The translations under genes were made by a program, and so were the position numbers. Shown in pieces: positions 17,230-58,369 of a DNA stretch of 64,000 nucleotides. Every line of letters starts with the position of its first letter. The stretch's first letter is position 1. The notes below the pieces were generated by a model. The model was not told the DNA's origin. It made no database searches and saw only the letters and a program-made list of their open reading frames with translations. The stretch comes from an uncultured Oxalobacteraceae bacterium (lineage in GTDB: Bacteria; Pseudomonadota; Gammaproteobacteria; Burkholderiales; Burkholderiaceae_D), in contig CBINHE010000002.1 in NCBI GenBank assembly GCA_966250375.1, forward strand, positions 7,961-71,960, given 5' to 3'.

Positions 17230-17604
17230 GTGAATGCCAATGCACTGAGAAGTGGCTTACTTTATCTCGTTGCGTTATTTTTGTCTTTTCAGGTTTTTGC
17301 AAGAGATGCGGTATCGATCGGGACGATTTCATGGGCTGGTTTGCCGGTCGAAGCGAGGAAGACGCTGGTATTGATCAAGCAGGGTGGGCCTTTTCCATAT
17401 GCCAAGGACGGTGCCGTATTTGGCAATTATGAGGGGATTTTACCCAAGCAGAAGCGCGGGTATTATCACGAGTTTACGGTCAAGACCGCGGGAGCGCACA
17501 ACCGTGGCGCACGACGCATTATTGTCGGCGGCGAGCCGGTGGCGTCACAGGATTTTTATTTTACCGACGATCATTATGCGACGTTCAAGCGAATAAAAGA
17601 GTAA
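17230..17604 (+). CDS. Secreted guanyl-specific ribonuclease (barnase/RNase Sa/N1-T1 family)
   Basis: Signal peptide. GGPFPY..DG..F.N.EG.LP, GYYHEFTV (catalytic Glu), ARRIIVGG, YFTDDHYATF (catalytic His). GTG start. Confidence 0.85.
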   Translation: MNANALRSGLLYLVALFLSFQVFARDAVSIGTISWAGLPVEARKTLVLIKQGGPFPYAKDGAVFGNYEGILPKQKRGYYHEFTVKTAGAHNRGARRIIVGGEPVASQDFYFTDDHYATFKRIKE

Positions 17605-17608
17605 TGGC

Positions 17609-18067
17609 ATGCGAACAGAGTCACTGCACAGAATAAATGCAACTATGACCACACGAGTTGAGGGAGAAATGAACCTGTTGACAACCGTGCCACCCAATGT
17701 GGTGCAGTCCATCCGTGCATTCCGCGTGACTGATTTGCAGGAAGAGGCAGCTCGACTTGGACACCATTTCCTGTACGCATACTGTGCAGAAGCGACAACC
17801 AAGCAGCAAGTTCTGGCTATCATCGCTGACGCGTTTCATTTTCCGAAACACTTCGGCAAGAATTTCGACGCGCTGGGTGATTGCCTGACGGATTTGGCGC
17901 ATAAAGCGGGACCGCAGCCCGGTTTCCTGGTGGTTTTGGAACAATTGCCGAATACCCCGAAGTTCGATAAGGAAGCACGCGAAACGCTGCTGGACGTGTT
18001 CCGCGATGCGGCCGATTTTTGGGCTGATAAAAAGGTCTCGTTTCGCGTGTTTTATTCCTTCCAATAA
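17609..18067 (+). CDS. Barstar-family ribonuclease inhibitor
   Basis: Starts 4 nt after the RNase stop. FHFPKHFGKNFDALGDCLTDL barstar signature. True start could be the internal MNLL. Confidence 0.8.
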   Translation: MRTESLHRINATMTTRVEGEMNLLTTVPPNVVQSIRAFRVTDLQEEAARLGHHFLYAYCAEATTKQQVLAIIADAFHFPKHFGKNFDALGDCLTDLAHKAGPQPGFLVVLEQLPNTPKFDKEARETLLDVFRDAADFWADKKVSFRVFYSFQ

Positions 18068-26507: not shown

Positions 26508-26631
26508 TAGAGCGGTTTGCGAATCAGTGTAAGGGGCCAATCTCGGGCCTGCGGTGCTCGGTGTACATCACGTACACGTGCGCTCCTCGGCCCGACCTCG
26601 GCTCCCTTGCACAGACCCGCAAACCGCTCTA
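26508..26631. mobile_element. MITE-like hairpin repeat, TAGAGCGG family, copy A1 (124 bp)
   Basis: Termini TAGAGCGGTTTGCG / CGCAAACCGCTCTA (14 bp perfect, imperfect out to about 27 bp). Internal gcggtgctcg-hairpin-gcgctcctcg...ccttgc module shared with the other copies. Confidence 0.65.
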
Positions 26632-32920: not shown

Positions 32921-33646
32921 ATGGCAGGGATGTTTAATCTGGCGACATTCAGGCGGATTGTGTCCGCAGCGGCATTGGCGGGTATGTTGGCGGGCTTGTT
33001 GTTGACCGTTGTTCAGCAACTTCAGGTGAGCCAGATCATACTCAAGGCTGAAGTGTATGAGAACGCAGCGGCTGCCTCGCAACCTGCCCATGTCCATGCT
33101 TCTGTCGAGCAGGAGCATCACGAACATGAGCATCACGAGCATGAGGTCTGGCAACCTGCCAACGGTGTAGAGCGGACTTTGTTCACGGCCTTGGCGAATA
33201 TCAGTCTGGCCGTTGGCTTCGGTTTGCTGCTGGGAGCCGCCATCTGTCTGCGTGGTGAAGTCAGCGGATGGCGTGCCGGGCTGTTGTGGGGCGTGGCAGG
33301 GTACACGGTTTTTTTTGTGGCCCCTTCCTTGGGTTTATCCCCGGAAGTTCCTGGCACCGAAGCGGCTCCACTGGCTGACCGACAACTATGGTGGCTCATC
33401 ACTGTGGGCATGACGGCAAGTGGACTATCACTGCTGATTTTTGCTCGAACCTGGCAGGTCAAAATACTGGGAGCAATCTTGCTCGGCGTTCCACACCTGA
33501 TCGGTGCGCCGCAGCTGCAAGTTCACACTAACGCACCGCCTGTCGAATTGGCCCGCGCTTTCATCTATGCCACGGCTATTGCCAATGCGGTGTTCTGGCT
33601 CGCGCTTGGCAGTTTGATGGGATTCTTTTACAAGAAATTCGCCTAG
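32921..33646 (+). CDS. cbtA: Cobalt transporter subunit CbtA
   Basis: Polytopic protein with His-rich loop EQEHHEHEHHEHE. Follows cbtB. The start is uncertain (GTG 32906, ATG 32921 or ATG 32930). Stop TAG 33644-33646 lies inside the repeat terminus. Confidence 0.85.
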   Translation: MAGMFNLATFRRIVSAAALAGMLAGLLLTVVQQLQVSQIILKAEVYENAAAASQPAHVHASVEQEHHEHEHHEHEVWQPANGVERTLFTALANISLAVGFGLLLGAAICLRGEVSGWRAGLLWGVAGYTVFFVAPSLGLSPEVPGTEAAPLADRQLWWLITVGMTASGLSLLIFARTWQVKILGAILLGVPHLIGAPQLQVHTNAPPVELARAFIYATAIANAVFWLALGSLMGFFYKKFA

Positions 33647-33881
33647 TGGTCAGTCAGGTTGAAACGGCGGGAAAGAAATCGATGGATTTTTTCGTCTGGC
33701 AAGGGTGTAGCAGGGGTTTCGCGCAGCATGCTGCGCGCCTGCGGAACAGTATCGGCTTGCAAGCCGATACGCGCCCTGCAAGGGCGAGGAGGCGCATAGC
33801 GAGCTATGCAACGACGAGCAACGCAGCCAGGCGGAAAAAGACGCGATTTATTCCCGTCGTTTCAGCCTGACTGACCACTAG
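33643..33881. mobile_element. MITE-like hairpin repeat, copy B1 (239 bp)
   Basis: 31-nt terminal inverted repeats (33643-33673 / 33851-33881, 2 mismatches). About 174-nt core that is about 88% identical (hand alignment) to the reverse complement of 55236-55411. Confidence 0.7.
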
Positions 33882-53197: not shown

Positions 53198-55111
53198 ATG
53201 GCAGTCATTTCTCTCTCCAATGCGCAACTCGCATTTGGCCATGTCGCATTGCTGGATCATGCGGAATTTTCTCTTGAGTCGGCTGAACGTGTCGGTTTGA
53301 TTGGACGCAACGGCACCGGCAAATCGTCGTTGCTCAAAATCCTTGCAGGGAGATCCAAACTGGACGACGGTTTGCTGGTCATGCAGCAGGGCCTCAAGAT
53401 TGCGTATGTAGAACAGGAGCCGCATTTTGCGTCCGACATGACAGTATTCGATGCGGTCGCGTCCGGCTTGGGCGAGCTGCCGGCATTGCTGGCGGAATAT
53501 GAGGCATTGACCGGGCAATTCGGCGGCGACAATGACGATGCGCTGATGGAGCGGATGCACGATATCCAGGTCAAACTCGATGCGGGAGACGCGTGGAATT
53601 TGAACAATCGTGTAGAGACTACGCTTGACCGCTTGAATCTTGCCAAGGATTCGCTGATGGGGACCTTATCGGGCGGGATGCAAAAGCGCGTGGCGTTGGC
53701 ATGCGCGTTGGTCAGTGCGCCGGATGTGTTGCTGTTGGATGAACCGACCAACCATCTCGACTTTACATCGATTCTGTGGCTGGAGGGCTTGCTGCGCGAC
53801 TACAAGGGTAGCGTGCTGTTCATCACACATGATCGCAGCTTTCTGGATAATGTCGCTACCCGCATCATCGAACTGGATCGGGGGCGCCTGGTTTCTTTTC
53901 CCGGTAATTTCAGTACTTATCAAACGCGCAAGGCCGAGCAGCTTGAGGTGGAGGAGGTCGAAAATGCCAAGTTCGACAAATTTCTCGCGCAGGAAGAAGT
54001 CTGGATACGCAAGGGCGTACAGGCGCGCCGCACACGAGACGAAGGCCGGGTGCGACGACTGGAGGCATTGCGGCTGCAGCGCAGCGCACGGCGCGAGCAG
54101 CAAGGACAGGTCAAGCTGGATGTATCGACCGGCGATCGGTCGGGCAAGATCGTTGCCGAACTGACCGACGTCAACAAGAGTTACGGCGGCAAAGTGATCG
54201 TGCGTGACTTTAGCGCGACGATCCTGCGCGGCGATAAGGTGGGCTTGATCGGGCCGAATGGTGCCGGCAAAACCACGCTGCTGAAACTTATTTTAGGTGA
54301 AGAGAAAGCGGATGCCGGCACGATCCGTCAAGGCACTAAATTGCAAGTCGCCTATTTCGATCAGATGCGCGCGCAATTGAACGAGGAAGCCAGTTTGGCC
54401 GATACGATTGCGCCGGGTAGCGACTGGGTTGAAATCAATGGCCAGCGCAAGCACGTGATGACCTATCTGAACGATTTCCTGTTTGCGCCGGAACGCGCAC
54501 GTTCACCGGTCAAGTCCTTGTCGGGCGGCGAACGCAATCGCCTGTTGTTGGCACGTTTGTTCGCCAAACCGGCTAATGTGTTGGTATTGGACGAGCCGAC
54601 CAATGACCTCGATATCGACACGCTGGAGCTATTGGAAGAACTGTTGGAAGACTATAGCGGCACGGTGTTTTTGGTCAGTCACGATCGGACCTTCCTTGAC
54701 AATGTCGTCACGCAAGTGATTGCTTCCGAAGGAAACGGACTGTGGCGCGAATACATTGGCGGCTACAGTGATTGGGAGCGGGTTCGTCCGACAAGCGCGT
54801 CGTCAGGGGCGGCAAAGGGTGCCGCCAGGATCGATGTGAAAATCGAGGCCAAAGAAGCTCCCCAGACAGTCGCTGTCAAGAAAAAGAAACTCAGCTACAA
54901 AGAGCAGCGTGATCTGGAAGCATTGCCGGTTTTGATCGCGCAGTTGGAGGCAGAACAGAAAGCTATTTCAGAAAAGTTGGCCGATCCTGATTTATACAAG
55001 CAAGAGGCAGGAGCACTGCAACAGCTCAATCAGCGTTTCGCCGAAATCGATACGCTGCTGCTGGAAAATCTGGAGAAGTGGGAGGCGATCGAAGCGCGTA
55101 GCAAAGAGTGA
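53198..55111 (+). CDS. uup: ABC-F family ATPase (Uup-like)
   Basis: Two ABC cassettes (GRNGTGKSS, GPNGAGKTT; LSGGMQKR, LSGGERNR), no TM domain, C-terminal coiled coil. Confidence 0.9.
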   Translation: MAVISLSNAQLAFGHVALLDHAEFSLESAERVGLIGRNGTGKSSLLKILAGRSKLDDGLLVMQQGLKIAYVEQEPHFASDMTVFDAVASGLGELPALLAEYEALTGQFGGDNDDALMERMHDIQVKLDAGDAWNLNNRVETTLDRLNLAKDSLMGTLSGGMQKRVALACALVSAPDVLLLDEPTNHLDFTSILWLEGLLRDYKGSVLFITHDRSFLDNVATRIIELDRGRLVSFPGNFSTYQTRKAEQLEVEEVENAKFDKFLAQEEVWIRKGVQARRTRDEGRVRRLEALRLQRSARREQQGQVKLDVSTGDRSGKIVAELTDVNKSYGGKVIVRDFSATILRGDKVGLIGPNGAGKTTLLKLILGEEKADAGTIRQGTKLQVAYFDQMRAQLNEEASLADTIAPGSDWVEINGQRKHVMTYLNDFLFAPERARSPVKSLSGGERNRLLLARLFAKPANVLVLDEPTNDLDIDTLELLEELLEDYSGTVFLVSHDRTFLDNVVTQVIASEGNGLWREYIGGYSDWERVRPTSASSGAAKGAARIDVKIEAKEAPQTVAVKKKKLSYKEQRDLEALPVLIAQLEAEQKAISEKLADPDLYKQEAGALQQLNQRFAEIDTLLLENLEKWEAIEARSKE

Positions 55112-55139: not shown

Positions 55140-55465
55140 TAGAGCGGATTGCAAATCACAGTAGGCTGCGCCCCGCGCACCGATACCGTCGCAAGAGCAC
55201 TACCTTATACCAATCTGCAGCCATAACGTGACATTAAATCGCGTCTTTTTTCGCCTGGCTGCGTTGCTCGTCGTTGCCATAGCTCGCTATGGCGCGTCCT
55301 CTCCCTTGCAGGGCGCGTCTGCGCTTGCAAGCGCAGACCGTTACGCAGGCGGACAGTATGCTGTCCGAATTCCCTGCTACACCCTTGCCAGCCGAAAAAA
55401 TCCATCGATTTCATTGTCACGTTATGGCTGCAGATTGGTATTACATCGGAGCGCAAACCGCTCTA
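55140..55465. mobile_element. Composite repeat: TAGAGCGG-family copy A3 interrupted by copy B2
   Basis: Outer termini TAGAGCGGATTGC / GCAAACCGCTCTA. The inner element occupies 55207-55441. Confidence 0.6.
55207..55441. mobile_element. MITE-like hairpin repeat, copy B2 (235 bp, inverted relative to B1)
   Basis: 27-bp perfect terminal inverted repeat ATACCAATCTGCAGCCATAACGTGACA. Core 55236-55411 is homologous to 33676-33849. Confidence 0.7.
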
Positions 55466-56332
55466 ATTCAAGCGCTTGATTGCATCGCGCAACTCCGGCA
55501 ATTTGTCGCGCAACGCCGCCGCATCCGCCGCATACGGCCGCTCTGACAGGTAATCCTCGAGATCCTGCAAGGCGGCTTGCGGGCATTCCATATTTGCATA
55601 CGCCAGTCCGCGGTCGCGTCGCTCGATGATTTCATCCGGCAGCAGAATGACCATCCGCTCTTGCACGCTTAGCAAGTGCTCCCATTGATGGCGTTCCTGG
55701 AACAGCGCTTTCAGGTTGCGCAGCATGCGCACCAGAATTTCACGCGGTTGCGCTTCCTGCAAATAGGCCGCCAGCATTGCTTCCGCCGGGTACTCCTGCT
55801 GCTCAAGAAAAGACCCCAGACGTTCTTCCAGATCCTCACGCGACAAACTCGCGCCATTGAATGGGTCCAGAATGATATCGCCGGATTGCACGGACAATTT
55901 CATCAGAAAGTGGCCGGGAAAAGAAACGCCTTTGATGTTCAAGCCTATTTGTTCCGCCAGCTCCATGTACACGACAGCAAGTGAAATGGGGATGCCGCGC
56001 CGCGTGCTGATTACGCAATGCAGGTAGCTGTTGTCGGGCGTGTAGTAGTCGTTGATGTTGCCTGCGAAACCGAGCTCACGGTAAAAGAAATGATTCAGCA
56101 TCCGCAATTTTTGGATCGATGATGCATCGGATGGCAAGCGGCGCAGCAGTCGCGCTGCCAGAATATCGATTTCGGCTTGCGGTGCGCCCATGTCGAGTTG
56201 CGGGTTGCTACCTTGCGCAATAGCCAATGCGGCTTCAAACAACGGGATGCAATCATCCTGTTGCACCAGCGAAGTGAAATAGTCAAGGGAATTAATCATC
56301 ATATCGTGTTCATCATATAACCATGATGTCAC
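55463..56332 (-). CDS. SirB1/YchA-like protein (transglutaminase-like N-terminal domain plus TPR)
   Basis: 289 aa with the domain pattern of the SirB1 family. Stop codon TAG (55465-55463) coincides with the repeat terminus. Confidence 0.7.
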   Translation of the reverse strand: MTSWLYDEHDMMINSLDYFTSLVQQDDCIPLFEAALAIAQGSNPQLDMGAPQAEIDILAARLLRRLPSDASSIQKLRMLNHFFYRELGFAGNINDYYTPDNSYLHCVISTRRGIPISLAVVYMELAEQIGLNIKGVSFPGHFLMKLSVQSGDIILDPFNGASLSREDLEERLGSFLEQQEYPAEAMLAAYLQEAQPREILVRMLRNLKALFQERHQWEHLLSVQERMVILLPDEIIERRDRGLAYANMECPQAALQDLEDYLSERPYAADAAALRDKLPELRDAIKRLN

Positions 56333-57926: not shown

Positions 57927-58207
57927 GGAGCGGGATGATGGTAGCTGTTCGGGTTATTGCGATAGGCACCGCACAAGTGCTGGTGCAAGGGGGAAGGCGG
58001 CAGAATCTTCATGTGGAGTATATAGAAAAACCTTTGTTTTTCCCTCTGAGGTCATGTGAAAATTTAAAATGCTCTTGAGGAGTATTTGATTTTCAACTCG
58101 GCGGAGAGAGGTAAATTGCCAGATGCGCGGCATTTTCATCACAAATTTGGCACAACGCGAAACGCGATAATGCGGCCAACGCGAACGCACGCGAGGGCGG
58201 GACATAA

Positions 58208-58369
58208 TAGAGCGGTTTTCGTATGAGTGTGCGGGTGCTGCGGGCCGCTTTGGAGCGCATTGCGGCGTTGCTCGTCGCTTGTGTGGCTCGCCACACGGCG
58301 CTCCTCGCGCCTTGCCCTGGACCCCAAATCAACCCGCAGCACCCGCACACTCATACGAAAACCGCTCTA
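58208..58369. mobile_element. MITE-like hairpin repeat, TAGAGCGG family, copy A2 (162 bp)
   Basis: Perfect 37-bp terminal inverted repeat (58208-58244 / 58333-58369). Internal gcgttgctcgtcg-hairpin-ggcgctcctcgcgccttgc module. Confidence 0.7.

What the first reader, a model, noticed from the sequence alone, without database searches (positions are those of the whole stretch)
55140..55465. Nested repeat: one hairpin element inserted into another, and the outer one supplies a stop codon
The outer TAGAGCGG-type element spans 55140-55465. It is interrupted at a TA by the 235-bp element 55207-55441, whose 27-bp terminal inverted repeat is perfect. Nesting implies successive insertion events, that is real mobility rather than a static palindrome. 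The right terminus ...CCGCTCTA overlaps the stop codon (TAG, minus strand, 55465-55463) of the SirB1-like gene. This is the second case in the window, after cbtA, where the element terminus TAG is the stop codon of the adjacent gene. All five copies begin with TA and end with TA. That fits TA target duplication and a preference for TAA/TAG stop codons or their surroundings.
Basis: seen in the sequence. Interest (0 to 1): 0.6.

Follow-up and report, generated by a model that had tools for sequence, protein, structure and literature searches.

The report
Two small transposons nested at a stop codon
Between two converging genes of a soil-type betaproteobacterium, a 233-base non-coding mini-transposon has jumped into an older, roughly 90-base one that had itself landed on the TA of a gene's stop codon and rebuilt it, which is ordinary behaviour for such selfish DNA.

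Summary

**Outer element (55140-55465).** It is a damaged copy of a 109-bp "TAGAGCGG" mini-transposon (MITE). The family has about 100 termini in this genome.

**Inner element.** It spans 55208-55440 (233 bp), not 55207-55441. It duplicated the triplet TTA, not TA. Removing it together with one TTA restores the canonical outer sequence exactly.

**Source of the inner family.** It derives from an IS630-family insertion sequence in the same genome (contig C99, 1165 bp). 22 of the MITE's 26 terminal bases match that IS. The IS, its Polaromonas homologue and ISAli3 all make 3-base T-N-A duplications.

**A second nesting.** An independent insertion at the same GATG-TAA-GG motif of another outer copy lies on contig C88.

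**Outer family.** It most likely duplicates TA within Y-TA-R. No transposase was found for it.

**The stop codon.** The element starts with G after the duplicated TA, so landing on a TAA or TAG stop always rebuilds TAG. The SirB1-like protein ends at the same residue as 36 of 36 orthologues, so it is unchanged.

**Stop-codon association.** 18 of 118 outer termini and 4 of 18 inner copies lie exactly on stop codons. That is about twice the expectation, and target preference plus tolerance of such insertions largely explains it.

The scan found the same IS630/T-N-A/stop-codon pattern earlier in other genomes. This is a new member of a known kind.

The parts
53198..55111 (+). ABC-F (Uup-like) ATPase gene, converging on the repeat block. 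Its stop lies 28 nt before the outer element.
   Evidence: ORF list. My codon-bias gene call. The orthologous gene lies next to sirB1 in relatives.
55140..55465 (.). Outer MITE of the 'TAGAGCGG' family (A subtype), including its two flanking TA copies (55140-41 and 55464-65). It is split into 55140-55207 and 55441-55465 by the inner element.
   Evidence: The joined halves align end to end with nine 98-112-bp copies, apart from a 19-bp deletion.
55205..55207 (.). Left copy of the TTA target duplication made by the inner element.
   Evidence: Canonical outer copies carry a single TTA in CTACCTTACATCGG. 19 other family copies have identical T-N-A flanks.
55208..55440 (.). Inner MITE, 233 bp, derived from an IS630-family IS. 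Its perfect 26-nt terminal inverted repeats lie at 55208-55233 and 55415-55440.
   Evidence: Its terminus matches 22 of 26 bases of the left end of the IS630-family IS at G000:C99:10896-12060. A sister copy at C23:4153-4385 is 92% identical (215/233) and has its own TAA duplication.
55276..55293 (.). Small hairpin (GCCATAGC-TC-GCTATGGC) inside the conserved core GCGTTGCTCGTCG...CGCGTCCTC, which is shared with elements that have other termini.
   Evidence: Sequence. The same ordered core occurs in 58208-58369 and 26508-26631 with different, compensated stems.
55310..55388 (.). Extra 78-79-bp multi-hairpin module, absent from the basic 155-156-bp form of the inner family. It is bracketed by CCCTTGC at 55303-55309 and 55382-55388. 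This is a third layer.
   Evidence: Alignment of the long and short forms. The same module sits inside 186-188-bp copies of the outer family. It gives 142 BLAST hits in the genome and is present in other genera.
55441..55443 (.). Right copy of the TTA target duplication made by the inner element.
55463..55465 (-). TAG stop codon of the SirB1-like gene. The TA is the target copy (55465-55464) and the G is the first base of the outer element (55463).
   Evidence: Orthologues end at the same Asn.
55463..56332 (-). SirB1-like gene (289 aa).
   Evidence: 39 related loci at 62-80% identity.

Best explanation
Two unrelated families of non-autonomous cut-and-paste transposons (MITEs) inserted one after the other into the short spacer between the converging uup-like and sirB1-like genes.

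**Step 1 (inferred).** A 109-bp element of the TAGAGCGG family inserted into the TA of the sirB1-like stop codon, in the context T-TA-G, and duplicated that TA.
- The element begins with G directly after the TA, so the gene-side junction reads TAG again. The protein is unchanged.
- Its transposase is unknown. The TA duplication in Y-TA-R points to the IS630/Tc1-mariner type or the IS5 (IS427/IS1301-like) type.

**Step 2 (shown).** A 233-bp MITE with TACCAATC...GATTGGTA ends inserted into the TAA/TTA of the conserved GATG-TAA-GG motif, 23 nt inside the outer element's right end, and duplicated TTA.
- This family is cut down from an IS630-family IS of the TACC-ended subgroup, which makes 3-base T-N-A duplications. 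It is presumably moved in trans by that IS.
- One such IS lies on contig C99. It has HTH and DDE_3 reading frames in the overlapping, frameshift layout of its homologues.
- The 233-bp form already carried a 78-bp hairpin module when it moved.

**Step 3.** The outer copy also lost 19 bp.

**Stop codons.** Copies of both families sit on stop codons about twice as often as expected. Stop codons match their targets (Y-TA-R for the outer family; TAA and TGA for the inner). The insertion regenerates the stop, so such insertions are harmless and persist.

The whole block folds into a long nested hairpin on either strand and may act on the 3' ends of both transcripts. That was not tested.
For: **Nesting and the TTA duplication**
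- The joined outer halves align exactly across the joint to nine intact copies.
- A second inner-type insertion sits at the homologous TAA of a D-subtype outer copy (C88:17404-17760), with a TAA duplication.

**The inner family**
- About 28 two-ended copies exist, 19 with identical T-N-A flanks.
- The parent IS at C99:10896-12060 is flanked by TAA/TAA and matches 22 of the MITE's 26 terminal bases.
- Its reading frames match HTH domains and DDE_3 in Pfam, and NCBIfam transpos_IS630 at 140.8 bits against a cut-off of 100.
- A Polaromonas JS666 homologue (76% aa) splits a TauD gene and is flanked by TCA/TCA. The 280-aa frame is restored only when a multiple of 3 bases is kept.
- Two ISAli3 copies are flanked by TTA/TTA and TGA/TGA.

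**The outer family**
- 97 exact 13-mer termini occur, against 2 in the control.
- The base before the TA is C or T in 94 of 118 termini.
- Two abutting pairs share a single TA: C126:6600/6601 and C32:16152/16153.
- SirB1-like orthologues end at the same Asn in 36 of 36 loci examined.
- SpoT-like and CheB-like proteins whose stops are also element termini end at the orthologous residue in 5 of 5 and 4 of 4 relatives.
- The closest relative, G002, has a 68-nt spacer with no element here.

**Stop codons**
- 18 of 118 outer termini and 4 of 18 inner copies lie on stops, against nulls of about 10% and about 7% (my estimate).

**Folding**
- z = -10.6 on the + strand and -9.4 on the - strand.
Against: - No exact empty site was found for the outer element. 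The nearest genome is only about 78% identical in DNA and uses TGA for this stop. The 2-base TA duplication and the ancestral TAG are therefore inferred.
- No IS with TAGAGCGG-type ends was found in G000, G002, G003 or G028, nor in the plasmid collection.
- Whether the C99 IS is active is unknown. Only one full copy is assembled, plus a diverged partial copy on C71. The genome is a 202-contig draft that breaks at these repeats.
- The stop-codon excess depends on my home-made gene calls.
- One of four proteins tested (a glycosyltransferase-like one) has a variable tail, so no conclusion was possible for it.
Confidence: 0.85

Rival explanations
1. One reading: both elements duplicate TA, and the inner element (55207-55441) inserted at a TA.
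For: Every copy begins and ends with TA. Classical IS630 and Tc1/mariner elements duplicate TA (PMC2229807, on RUP and IS630-Spn1).
Against: - Canonical outer copies have one TTA at the site. A TA model predicts a different empty site.
- 19 copies have the same three bases on both sides, with the middle base varying among A, T, G and C.
- The Polaromonas TauD frame is broken if 2 bases are kept and restored with 3.
- ISAli3 copies show TTA/TTA and TGA/TGA.
Confidence: 0.03
2. The elements actively seek stop codons or gene 3' ends, for example through local DNA structure or transcription-coupled targeting, rather than being passively retained there.
For: - Observed fractions on stops are 20-30% per element for the outer family and 22% for the inner. 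These exceed the Y-TA-R null of 10.3% and a T-N-A null of about 7%.
- Two inner insertions hit the very same motif in two outer copies, although the genome has only 72 ATGTAAGG sites.
Against: - The excess is only about two-fold. It loses significance (p = 0.13) if the true non-coding space is smaller than in my conservative gene set, which is 82% coding.
- Insertions elsewhere in intergenic DNA, such as promoters, are likely to be counter-selected, and that alone inflates the share at stops.
- The inner family shows a TAA-G context preference that fits GATGTAAGG.
Confidence: 0.15
3. The block is a static structured palindrome (REP/BIME-like, or a terminator or regulatory hairpin) built by local duplication or recombination, not by transposition.
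For: - Very stable nested folds on both strands.
- Arms co-vary between copies.
- The hairpin modules occur in tandem arrays in some copies.
- The genome has 3-4 Y1 (RAYT/IS200-like) transposase genes.
Against: - Precise target duplications at dozens of unrelated loci.
- An autonomous IS with matching ends.
- Exact restoration of the host sequence when the insert is removed.
- A patchy distribution across genomes.
- No module copy lies within 3 kb of any Y1 gene.
Confidence: 0.03
4. The outer insertion changed the SirB1-like protein: the element truncated or extended the gene and supplies a new stop.
For: The stop codon's third base is element DNA. MITEs that add C-terminal residues are known, for example QMITE2 in enhC (PMC5896051).
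Against: All 36 orthologues examined end ...(K/R)(R/K/G)(L/M/T)(N/H/D)* at the aligned position, the same length as here. The far flank reads TA-GAGG, so the inferred ancestral codon is also TAG.
Confidence: 0.03

Closest known systems
RUP (repeat unit of pneumococcus), proposed to be mobilised by IS630-Spn1 (PMC2229807)
   Same: A short non-coding element whose inverted ends resemble those of an IS630-family IS in the same genome. It has many intergenic copies and also inserts into other mobile elements.
   Different: RUP targets and duplicates TA. The inner element here duplicates three bases (T-N-A), and its terminal TA is part of the element. It also carries an internal hairpin core and an extra module.
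ISAli3 (IS630-like, Azospirillum lipoferum 4B) and unnamed homologues such as the Polaromonas sp. JS666 plasmid 2 copy
   Same: Ends beginning TACCA..., a length of about 1165 bp, HTH plus DDE_3 frames, and 3-base T-N-A duplications. The C99 IS shares 51% (ISAli3) and 76% (Polaromonas) amino-acid identity over the DDE part.
   Different: Those are autonomous ISs. The element in the window is a 233-bp non-coding derivative.
Correia repeat-enclosed elements (CREE/NEMIS) of Neisseria (PMC5039591, PMC2229807)
   Same: An orphan MITE with no known transposase, TA-bounded, 100-160 bp, with subtypes that differ in their interior, and a long hairpin transcript. 9 of the first 11 bases of the A-left arm match TATAGTGGATT.
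   Different: - Only one of six outer arm types scores above shuffles against Correia ends (6 of 2000 shuffles).
- The hosts belong to a different order.
- The first base after the TA is G here and T in Correia, so only the family here rebuilds a stop.
- The IHF site and RNase III processing were not tested.
IS1111 inserted into QMITE2 copies in Coxiella burnetii (PMC5896051)
   Same: One mobile element repeatedly uses a site inside another small repeat as its target, giving nested structures that date the events.
   Different: There a full IS is nested in a MITE. Here a MITE is nested in a MITE, and only two such events were seen.

Membership tests
MITE (bacterial miniature inverted-repeat transposable element): inner element | Short, non-coding, with terminal inverted repeats | tested here: met
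   233 bp with a perfect 26-nt TIR. No gene was called in it.
MITE: inner element | Target-site duplication shown against an empty site | tested here: met
   TTA is duplicated and nine uninterrupted host copies carry a single TTA. 19 copies have identical T-N-A flanks.
MITE: inner element | An autonomous IS with matching ends and the same duplication | tested here: met
   The IS at C99:10896-12060 matches 22 of 26 terminal bases and is flanked by TAA/TAA.
IS630 family (for the parent IS) | DDE_3 transposase with N-terminal HTH domains, above the curated cut-offs | tested here: met
   PF13358 at 88.6 bits (cut-off 28.6). HTH_33 and HTH_23. NF033545 at 140.8 bits (cut-off 100).
IS630 family (classical definition) | Duplication of the dinucleotide TA | tested here: not met
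   A three-base T-N-A duplication in the C99 IS, the Polaromonas copy, ISAli3 and the MITEs. This is a subgroup trait and does not exclude it from the protein family.
MITE: outer TAGAGCGG element | Short, non-coding, multi-copy, with inverted ends | tested here: met
   97 exact termini against 2 in the control. 26-27 two-ended copies of 44-326 bp.
MITE: outer TAGAGCGG element | Target-site duplication (TA) shown against an empty site | tested here: inconclusive
   No exact empty site was found. The support is indirect:
- a single shared TA between abutting copies;
- the Y-TA-R flank profile;
- unchanged protein ends;
- a 29-nt paralogue with one dinucleotide at the site.
MITE: outer TAGAGCGG element | A related autonomous IS | tested here: not met
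   None was found in G000, G002, G003 or G028, nor in the plasmid collection.
Correia elements (CREE/NEMIS) | The 26-bp Correia inverted repeat (tatagtggattaa...) | tested here: inconclusive
   The A-left arm scores above shuffles (6 of 2000). The five other arm types do not.
Correia elements (CREE/NEMIS) | IHF-binding core, RNase III processing, promoter creation | not testable with these tools
The promoter scan found none.
REP/BIME mobilised by RAYT | Short palindromes clustered around, or associated with, a Y1 transposase gene, with no target duplication | tested here: not met
   Both elements have target duplications. Y1 genes exist, but no module copy lies within 3 kb of them.

The most novel reading that the evidence does not exclude
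The TAGAGCGG elements would be a previously undescribed orphan MITE superfamily of Burkholderiales with three properties.
- Its bipartite ends (TAGAGCGG-WTTKC-N7-TGTARGGG) and its G-first terminus would make every insertion into a TAA or TAG stop self-repairing.
- The conserved TGTAAGG box in its ends would be a preferred landing pad for an unrelated IS630-type MITE.
- The shared hairpin core and 78-bp module, carried by at least three unrelated end types, would be the selected cargo: a structured RNA or DNA unit that moves between transposon backbones.
Probability: 0.15. Interest if true: 0.55.

Novelty: new member of a known kind. Interest (0 to 1): 0.3.

Why it matters
- **The nest is a natural experiment.** The intact 109-bp copies serve as the empty site. 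They fix the inner family's borders and its 3-base duplication without needing a sister strain.
- **It links about 28 anonymous repeats to a specific IS630-family transposase** that could be tested directly.
- **It explains why small transposons so often touch stop codons.** The targets Y-TA-R and T-N-A include stop codons, and the insertion rebuilds them.
- **It has practical consequences.** These repeats break the assembly, since many contigs end in them. They create spurious ORFs and false microRNA-like Rfam hits. Gene callers should expect stop codons that are partly transposon DNA.

Tried and rejected
- **Looser terminus search.** Allowing 2 mismatches over 13 nt gave as many hits in the reversed-genome control (439+480 against 394+359), so it was dropped.
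- **Parent IS for the outer family.** I looked for pairs up to 3 kb, GAGCGG-type ends around 26 DDE_Tnp_1 hits, inverted repeats around two further DDE_3 loci, termini maps of G002, G003 and G028, and the plasmid collection by BLAST. Nothing was found.
- **Paralogous empty sites for outer copies.** Only one 29-nt match turned up, with TG at the site. It is weak.
- **Close relatives for orthologous empty sites.** None exists in the same genus, and the best is about 78% identical in DNA.
- **Close homologues of the C99 transposase.** None in 30 relatives at E <= 1e-40.
- **IS5/Harbinger-type origin for the T-N-A duplication.** I considered this first and rejected it once the DDE_3/IS630 IS with matching ends was found.
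- **Rfam.** Only sub-threshold microRNA-like hits on the neighbouring hairpin at 58208-58369, which are spurious.
- **RAYT link to the hairpin module.** No proximity.
- **Literature on MITEs in Oxalobacteraceae.** Nothing relevant in the library.

Full report
**What is there**

The window is G000:C2:7961-71960 of a 4.45-Mb, 202-contig genome with 54.8% G+C. By its SirB1-like protein the organism belongs to the Oxalobacteraceae, near Noviherbaspirillum and Herminiimonas, with best matches at 62-80% identity.

Two genes converge on the repeat block. The ABC-F (Uup-like) gene occupies 53198-55111 (+). The SirB1-like gene occupies 55463-56332 (-). Between them lie 28 nt of ordinary spacer followed by 326 nt of repeat DNA.

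- TAGAGCGG occurs 8 times in the window against 1.1 expected.
- The 26-mer TACCAATCTGCAGCCATAACGTGACA occurs exactly twice, in inverted orientation, against 0 expected.

**The outer element**

Genome-wide, TAGAGCGG followed by WTTKY marks 97 termini, against 2 in a reversed-pattern control. 26-27 copies have both ends within 700 bp.

The copies fall into subtypes A to E. These share TAGAGCGG-WTTKC, a variable spacer of about 7 nt that is complementary between the two arms of a copy, and a TGT(A)RGGG box.

The copy at 55140-55465 is an A subtype. When 55140-55207 is joined to 55444-55465, the 90-nt product aligns end to end with nine 98-112-bp copies. It differs only by a 19-bp internal deletion and two substitutions.

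**The inner element and its duplication**

Across the joint the intact copies read CTACCTTACATCGG. The window reads CTACC-TTA-[TACCAATC...GATTGGTA]-TTA-CATCGG. From this:

- the insert is 55208-55440 (233 bp);
- it duplicated TTA;
- its terminal TA...TA belongs to the element.

About 28 other two-ended copies of 43-675 bp exist. 19 of them have the same three bases on both sides: TTA, TAA, TGA or TCA. Chance would give about 0.4 such copies.

The basic form of the family is 155-156 bp. The window copy and its 92%-identical sister at C23:4153-4385, which has its own TAA duplication, carry an additional 78-79-bp multi-hairpin module (55310-55388) bracketed by CCCTTGC. The module was therefore on board before these two copies moved.

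**Who moves the inner element**

A search of the genome with Pfam DDE_3 found a 1165-bp element at C99:10896-12060. Its properties are:

- its ends are TACCAATCTTCAGTCACAACGTTACA... and ...GATTGGTA, and it is flanked by TAA/TAA;
- its left end matches 22 of the 26 terminal bases of the MITE;
- its two overlapping frames match HTH_33/HTH_23 and DDE_3, and NCBIfam's IS630 model at 140.8 bits against a cut-off of 100.

Two sets of homologues show the same three-base duplication.

- The closest annotated homologue (76% aa) is on Polaromonas sp. JS666 plasmid 2 and has the same two-frame layout. It splits a TauD/TfdA gene and is flanked by TCA/TCA. Joining the flanks restores a 280-aa frame only if a multiple of three bases is kept.
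- Two copies of the named element ISAli3 are flanked by TTA/TTA and TGA/TGA.

The inner element is therefore a MITE of the TACC-ended IS630 subgroup, which makes T-N-A duplications. My first guess of an IS5/Harbinger-type parent was wrong. Earlier notes of this scan reached the same reading for other genomes. I treat those as leads only. The tests above are my own.

**A second nesting**

C88:17404-17760 is a D-subtype outer element. It carries a 273-bp inner-type element at TAGAGCGAATTTCCCCCGGATG-TAA-[...]-TAA-GGGG. Read on the other strand, the window insertion is TAGAGCGGTTTGCGCTCCGATG-TAA-[...]. The two events hit the homologous TAA in two different outer subtypes.

The inner family tends to insert at TAA followed by G, which fits this box. 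The genome has only 72 ATGTAAGG sites, so the coincidence is notable. With two events I do not build on it.

**The outer element's duplication and the stop codon**

No exact empty site exists. No genome of the same genus is held, and the nearest (G002) is about 78% identical in DNA. G002 has a 68-nt spacer without any element at this position and uses TGA as the stop. The evidence for a TA duplication is indirect:

- the base before the terminal TA is C or T in 94 of 118 termini, which gives a Y-TA-R target by symmetry;
- twice, two elements abut and share one TA (...CCGCTC-TA-GAGCGG...; C126:6600/6601 and C32:16152/16153). This is expected if the second element used the TA beside the first;
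- flanks beyond the TA show no repeat;
- a 4-base Y-TA-R duplication is excluded, because the outer base is C in only 44 of 118 termini.

On the minus strand the gene reads ...AAG CGC TTG AAT TAG-AGCGG. Beyond the element the sequence continues TA-GAGGTCC. The inferred ancestral sequence is therefore AAT TAG AGG, and the element contributes only the G.

All 36 orthologues for which I read the end stop directly after the aligned Asn (or His/Asp), with TGA, TAA or TAG. The protein is unchanged.

I tested three more of the 18 genes whose stop is an element terminus.

| Protein | Result |
|---|---|
| SpoT-like | ends at the orthologous residue in 5 of 5 relatives |
| CheB-like | ends at the orthologous residue in 4 of 4 relatives |
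| Glycosyltransferase-like | naturally variable tail, uninformative |

**Association with stop codons**

I built a codon-bias gene set of 3443 genes covering 82% of the genome. Against it, 18 of 118 outer termini are the TAG stop of a gene that reads into the element.

If insertions fell at random on Y-TA-R sites outside coding sequence, 10.3% would hit a stop codon. For any TA the figure is 5.3%.

- For 92 elements (26 pairs plus 66 single termini) the excess has p = 0.006.
- With a null of 14.8%, which allows for genes I missed, p = 0.13.

For the inner family, 4 of 18 copies with a clean duplication have that triplet as a stop codon. My rough null is about 7%.

The association is real but modest. 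The simplest account has three parts: stop codons match the targets, the insertion regenerates the stop (TA+G gives TAG, and T-N-A is duplicated whole), and insertions elsewhere are more often harmful.

**Distribution and relatives**

Among 30 relatives, the termini are abundant only in three genomes.

| Genome | Termini | Dominant subtype | Kinship to G000 |
|---|---|---|---|
| G002 | 66 | C | same family |
| G003 | 16 | not classified (all termini TAGAGCGGTTTG[C/T]) | same family |
| G028 | 70 | D | different family, same order |

All other relatives have 2 or fewer, which is at control level. None of these genomes shows IS-length pairs.

Only one arm type resembles the Correia inverted repeat of Neisseria (sequences from PMC5039591) better than shuffles do. 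The comparison with Correia is therefore one of architecture: an orphan, TA-bounded hairpin element. Homology is not demonstrated.

**Structure and function**

Both strands of 55100-55480 fold into a long nested hairpin (-169 and -183 kcal/mol; z = -10.6 and -9.4).

- The consensus scans found no promoter and only one weak terminator-like site, which is at the level seen in shuffles.
- Rfam has no family for it.
- Any effect on the two converging transcripts is untested.

**Verdict**

This is a well-supported nested pair of MITEs and a new member of a known kind. The stop-codon overlap is real and recurrent, and it is explained by target choice plus harmlessness.

Noticed in passing
G000:C88:17404-17760 (outside the window): A second nested case. 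A 273-bp inner-type MITE (17429-17701, TAA duplication) sits inside a D-subtype TAGAGCGG element, at the same GATG-TAA-GG box as in the window.
   Followed up: yes
G000:C126:6555-6646 and G000:C32:15952-16221: Two outer-family elements of different subtypes lie back to back and share a single TA (CCGCTC-TA-GAGCGG). The TA beside an inserted copy seems to be a good target for the next one.
   Followed up: partly
window 55310-55388; also G000:C20:22048-22235, C13:18831-19016, C134:8191-8377, C1:18078-18263: The same 78-bp multi-hairpin module sits inside the inner MITE and inside 186-188-bp copies of the outer A subtype. About ten termini carry it, so that composite has itself multiplied. In both hosts it is bracketed by ...AGGG/CCCT... 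repeats. Its stems differ between copies by compensated changes around a constant CTTGCAAG centre. It gives 142 BLAST hits in the genome.
   Followed up: partly
inner-family copies, e.g. window 55216-55223 with 55425-55432; G000:C57:768-923; C59:24828-24983: Positions 9-15 of the inner family's terminal repeat differ between copies (CTGCAGCC, CCTCACCC, CTTCCGTC, CTGAAGCC...), yet the two arms of each copy stay complementary. By contrast, the two ends of the parent IS differ from each other. This suggests arm-to-arm correction or selection for the hairpin.
   Followed up: no
window 33644-33881: The copy after the cbtA-like gene has the same interior as the inner element but different ends (C-TAGTGGTCAGTCAGG...). 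That family has about 30 termini, nearly always preceded by C (CTAG). One core is therefore carried by at least three end types.
   Followed up: partly
G000:C27:33573-33627, C67:9032-9074, C61:9348-9395; G028, several 30-bp pairs: Minimal versions made only of the two terminal repeats (30-55 bp) exist for both families.
   Followed up: no
G000:C1:63549-64290: A decayed IS5-family (DDE_Tnp_1) element with ends GAGCGTGTTCACGATC, flanked by TAA and TTA. Its first five bases match those of the outer family's end after the TA, but it is not a convincing parent.
   Followed up: partly
whole assembly G000: Many contigs begin or end inside these repeats (for example C98, C171, C54, C91, C11, C134). 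The draft assembly breaks at them, so copy counts are lower bounds.
   Followed up: no
window 58206-58368: Rfam gives sub-threshold matches to a plant microRNA precursor family (MIR1858, 46.5 bits against a gathering score of 137) on both strands of the 162-bp C-subtype copy. This is a false positive caused by the long perfect hairpin.
   Followed up: yes
G000:C3:63556-63879, C40:35773-36099, C74:7807-8148: Three apparently intact Y1 (RAYT/IS200-like) transposase genes. None has a copy of the hairpin module within 3 kb.
   Followed up: partly
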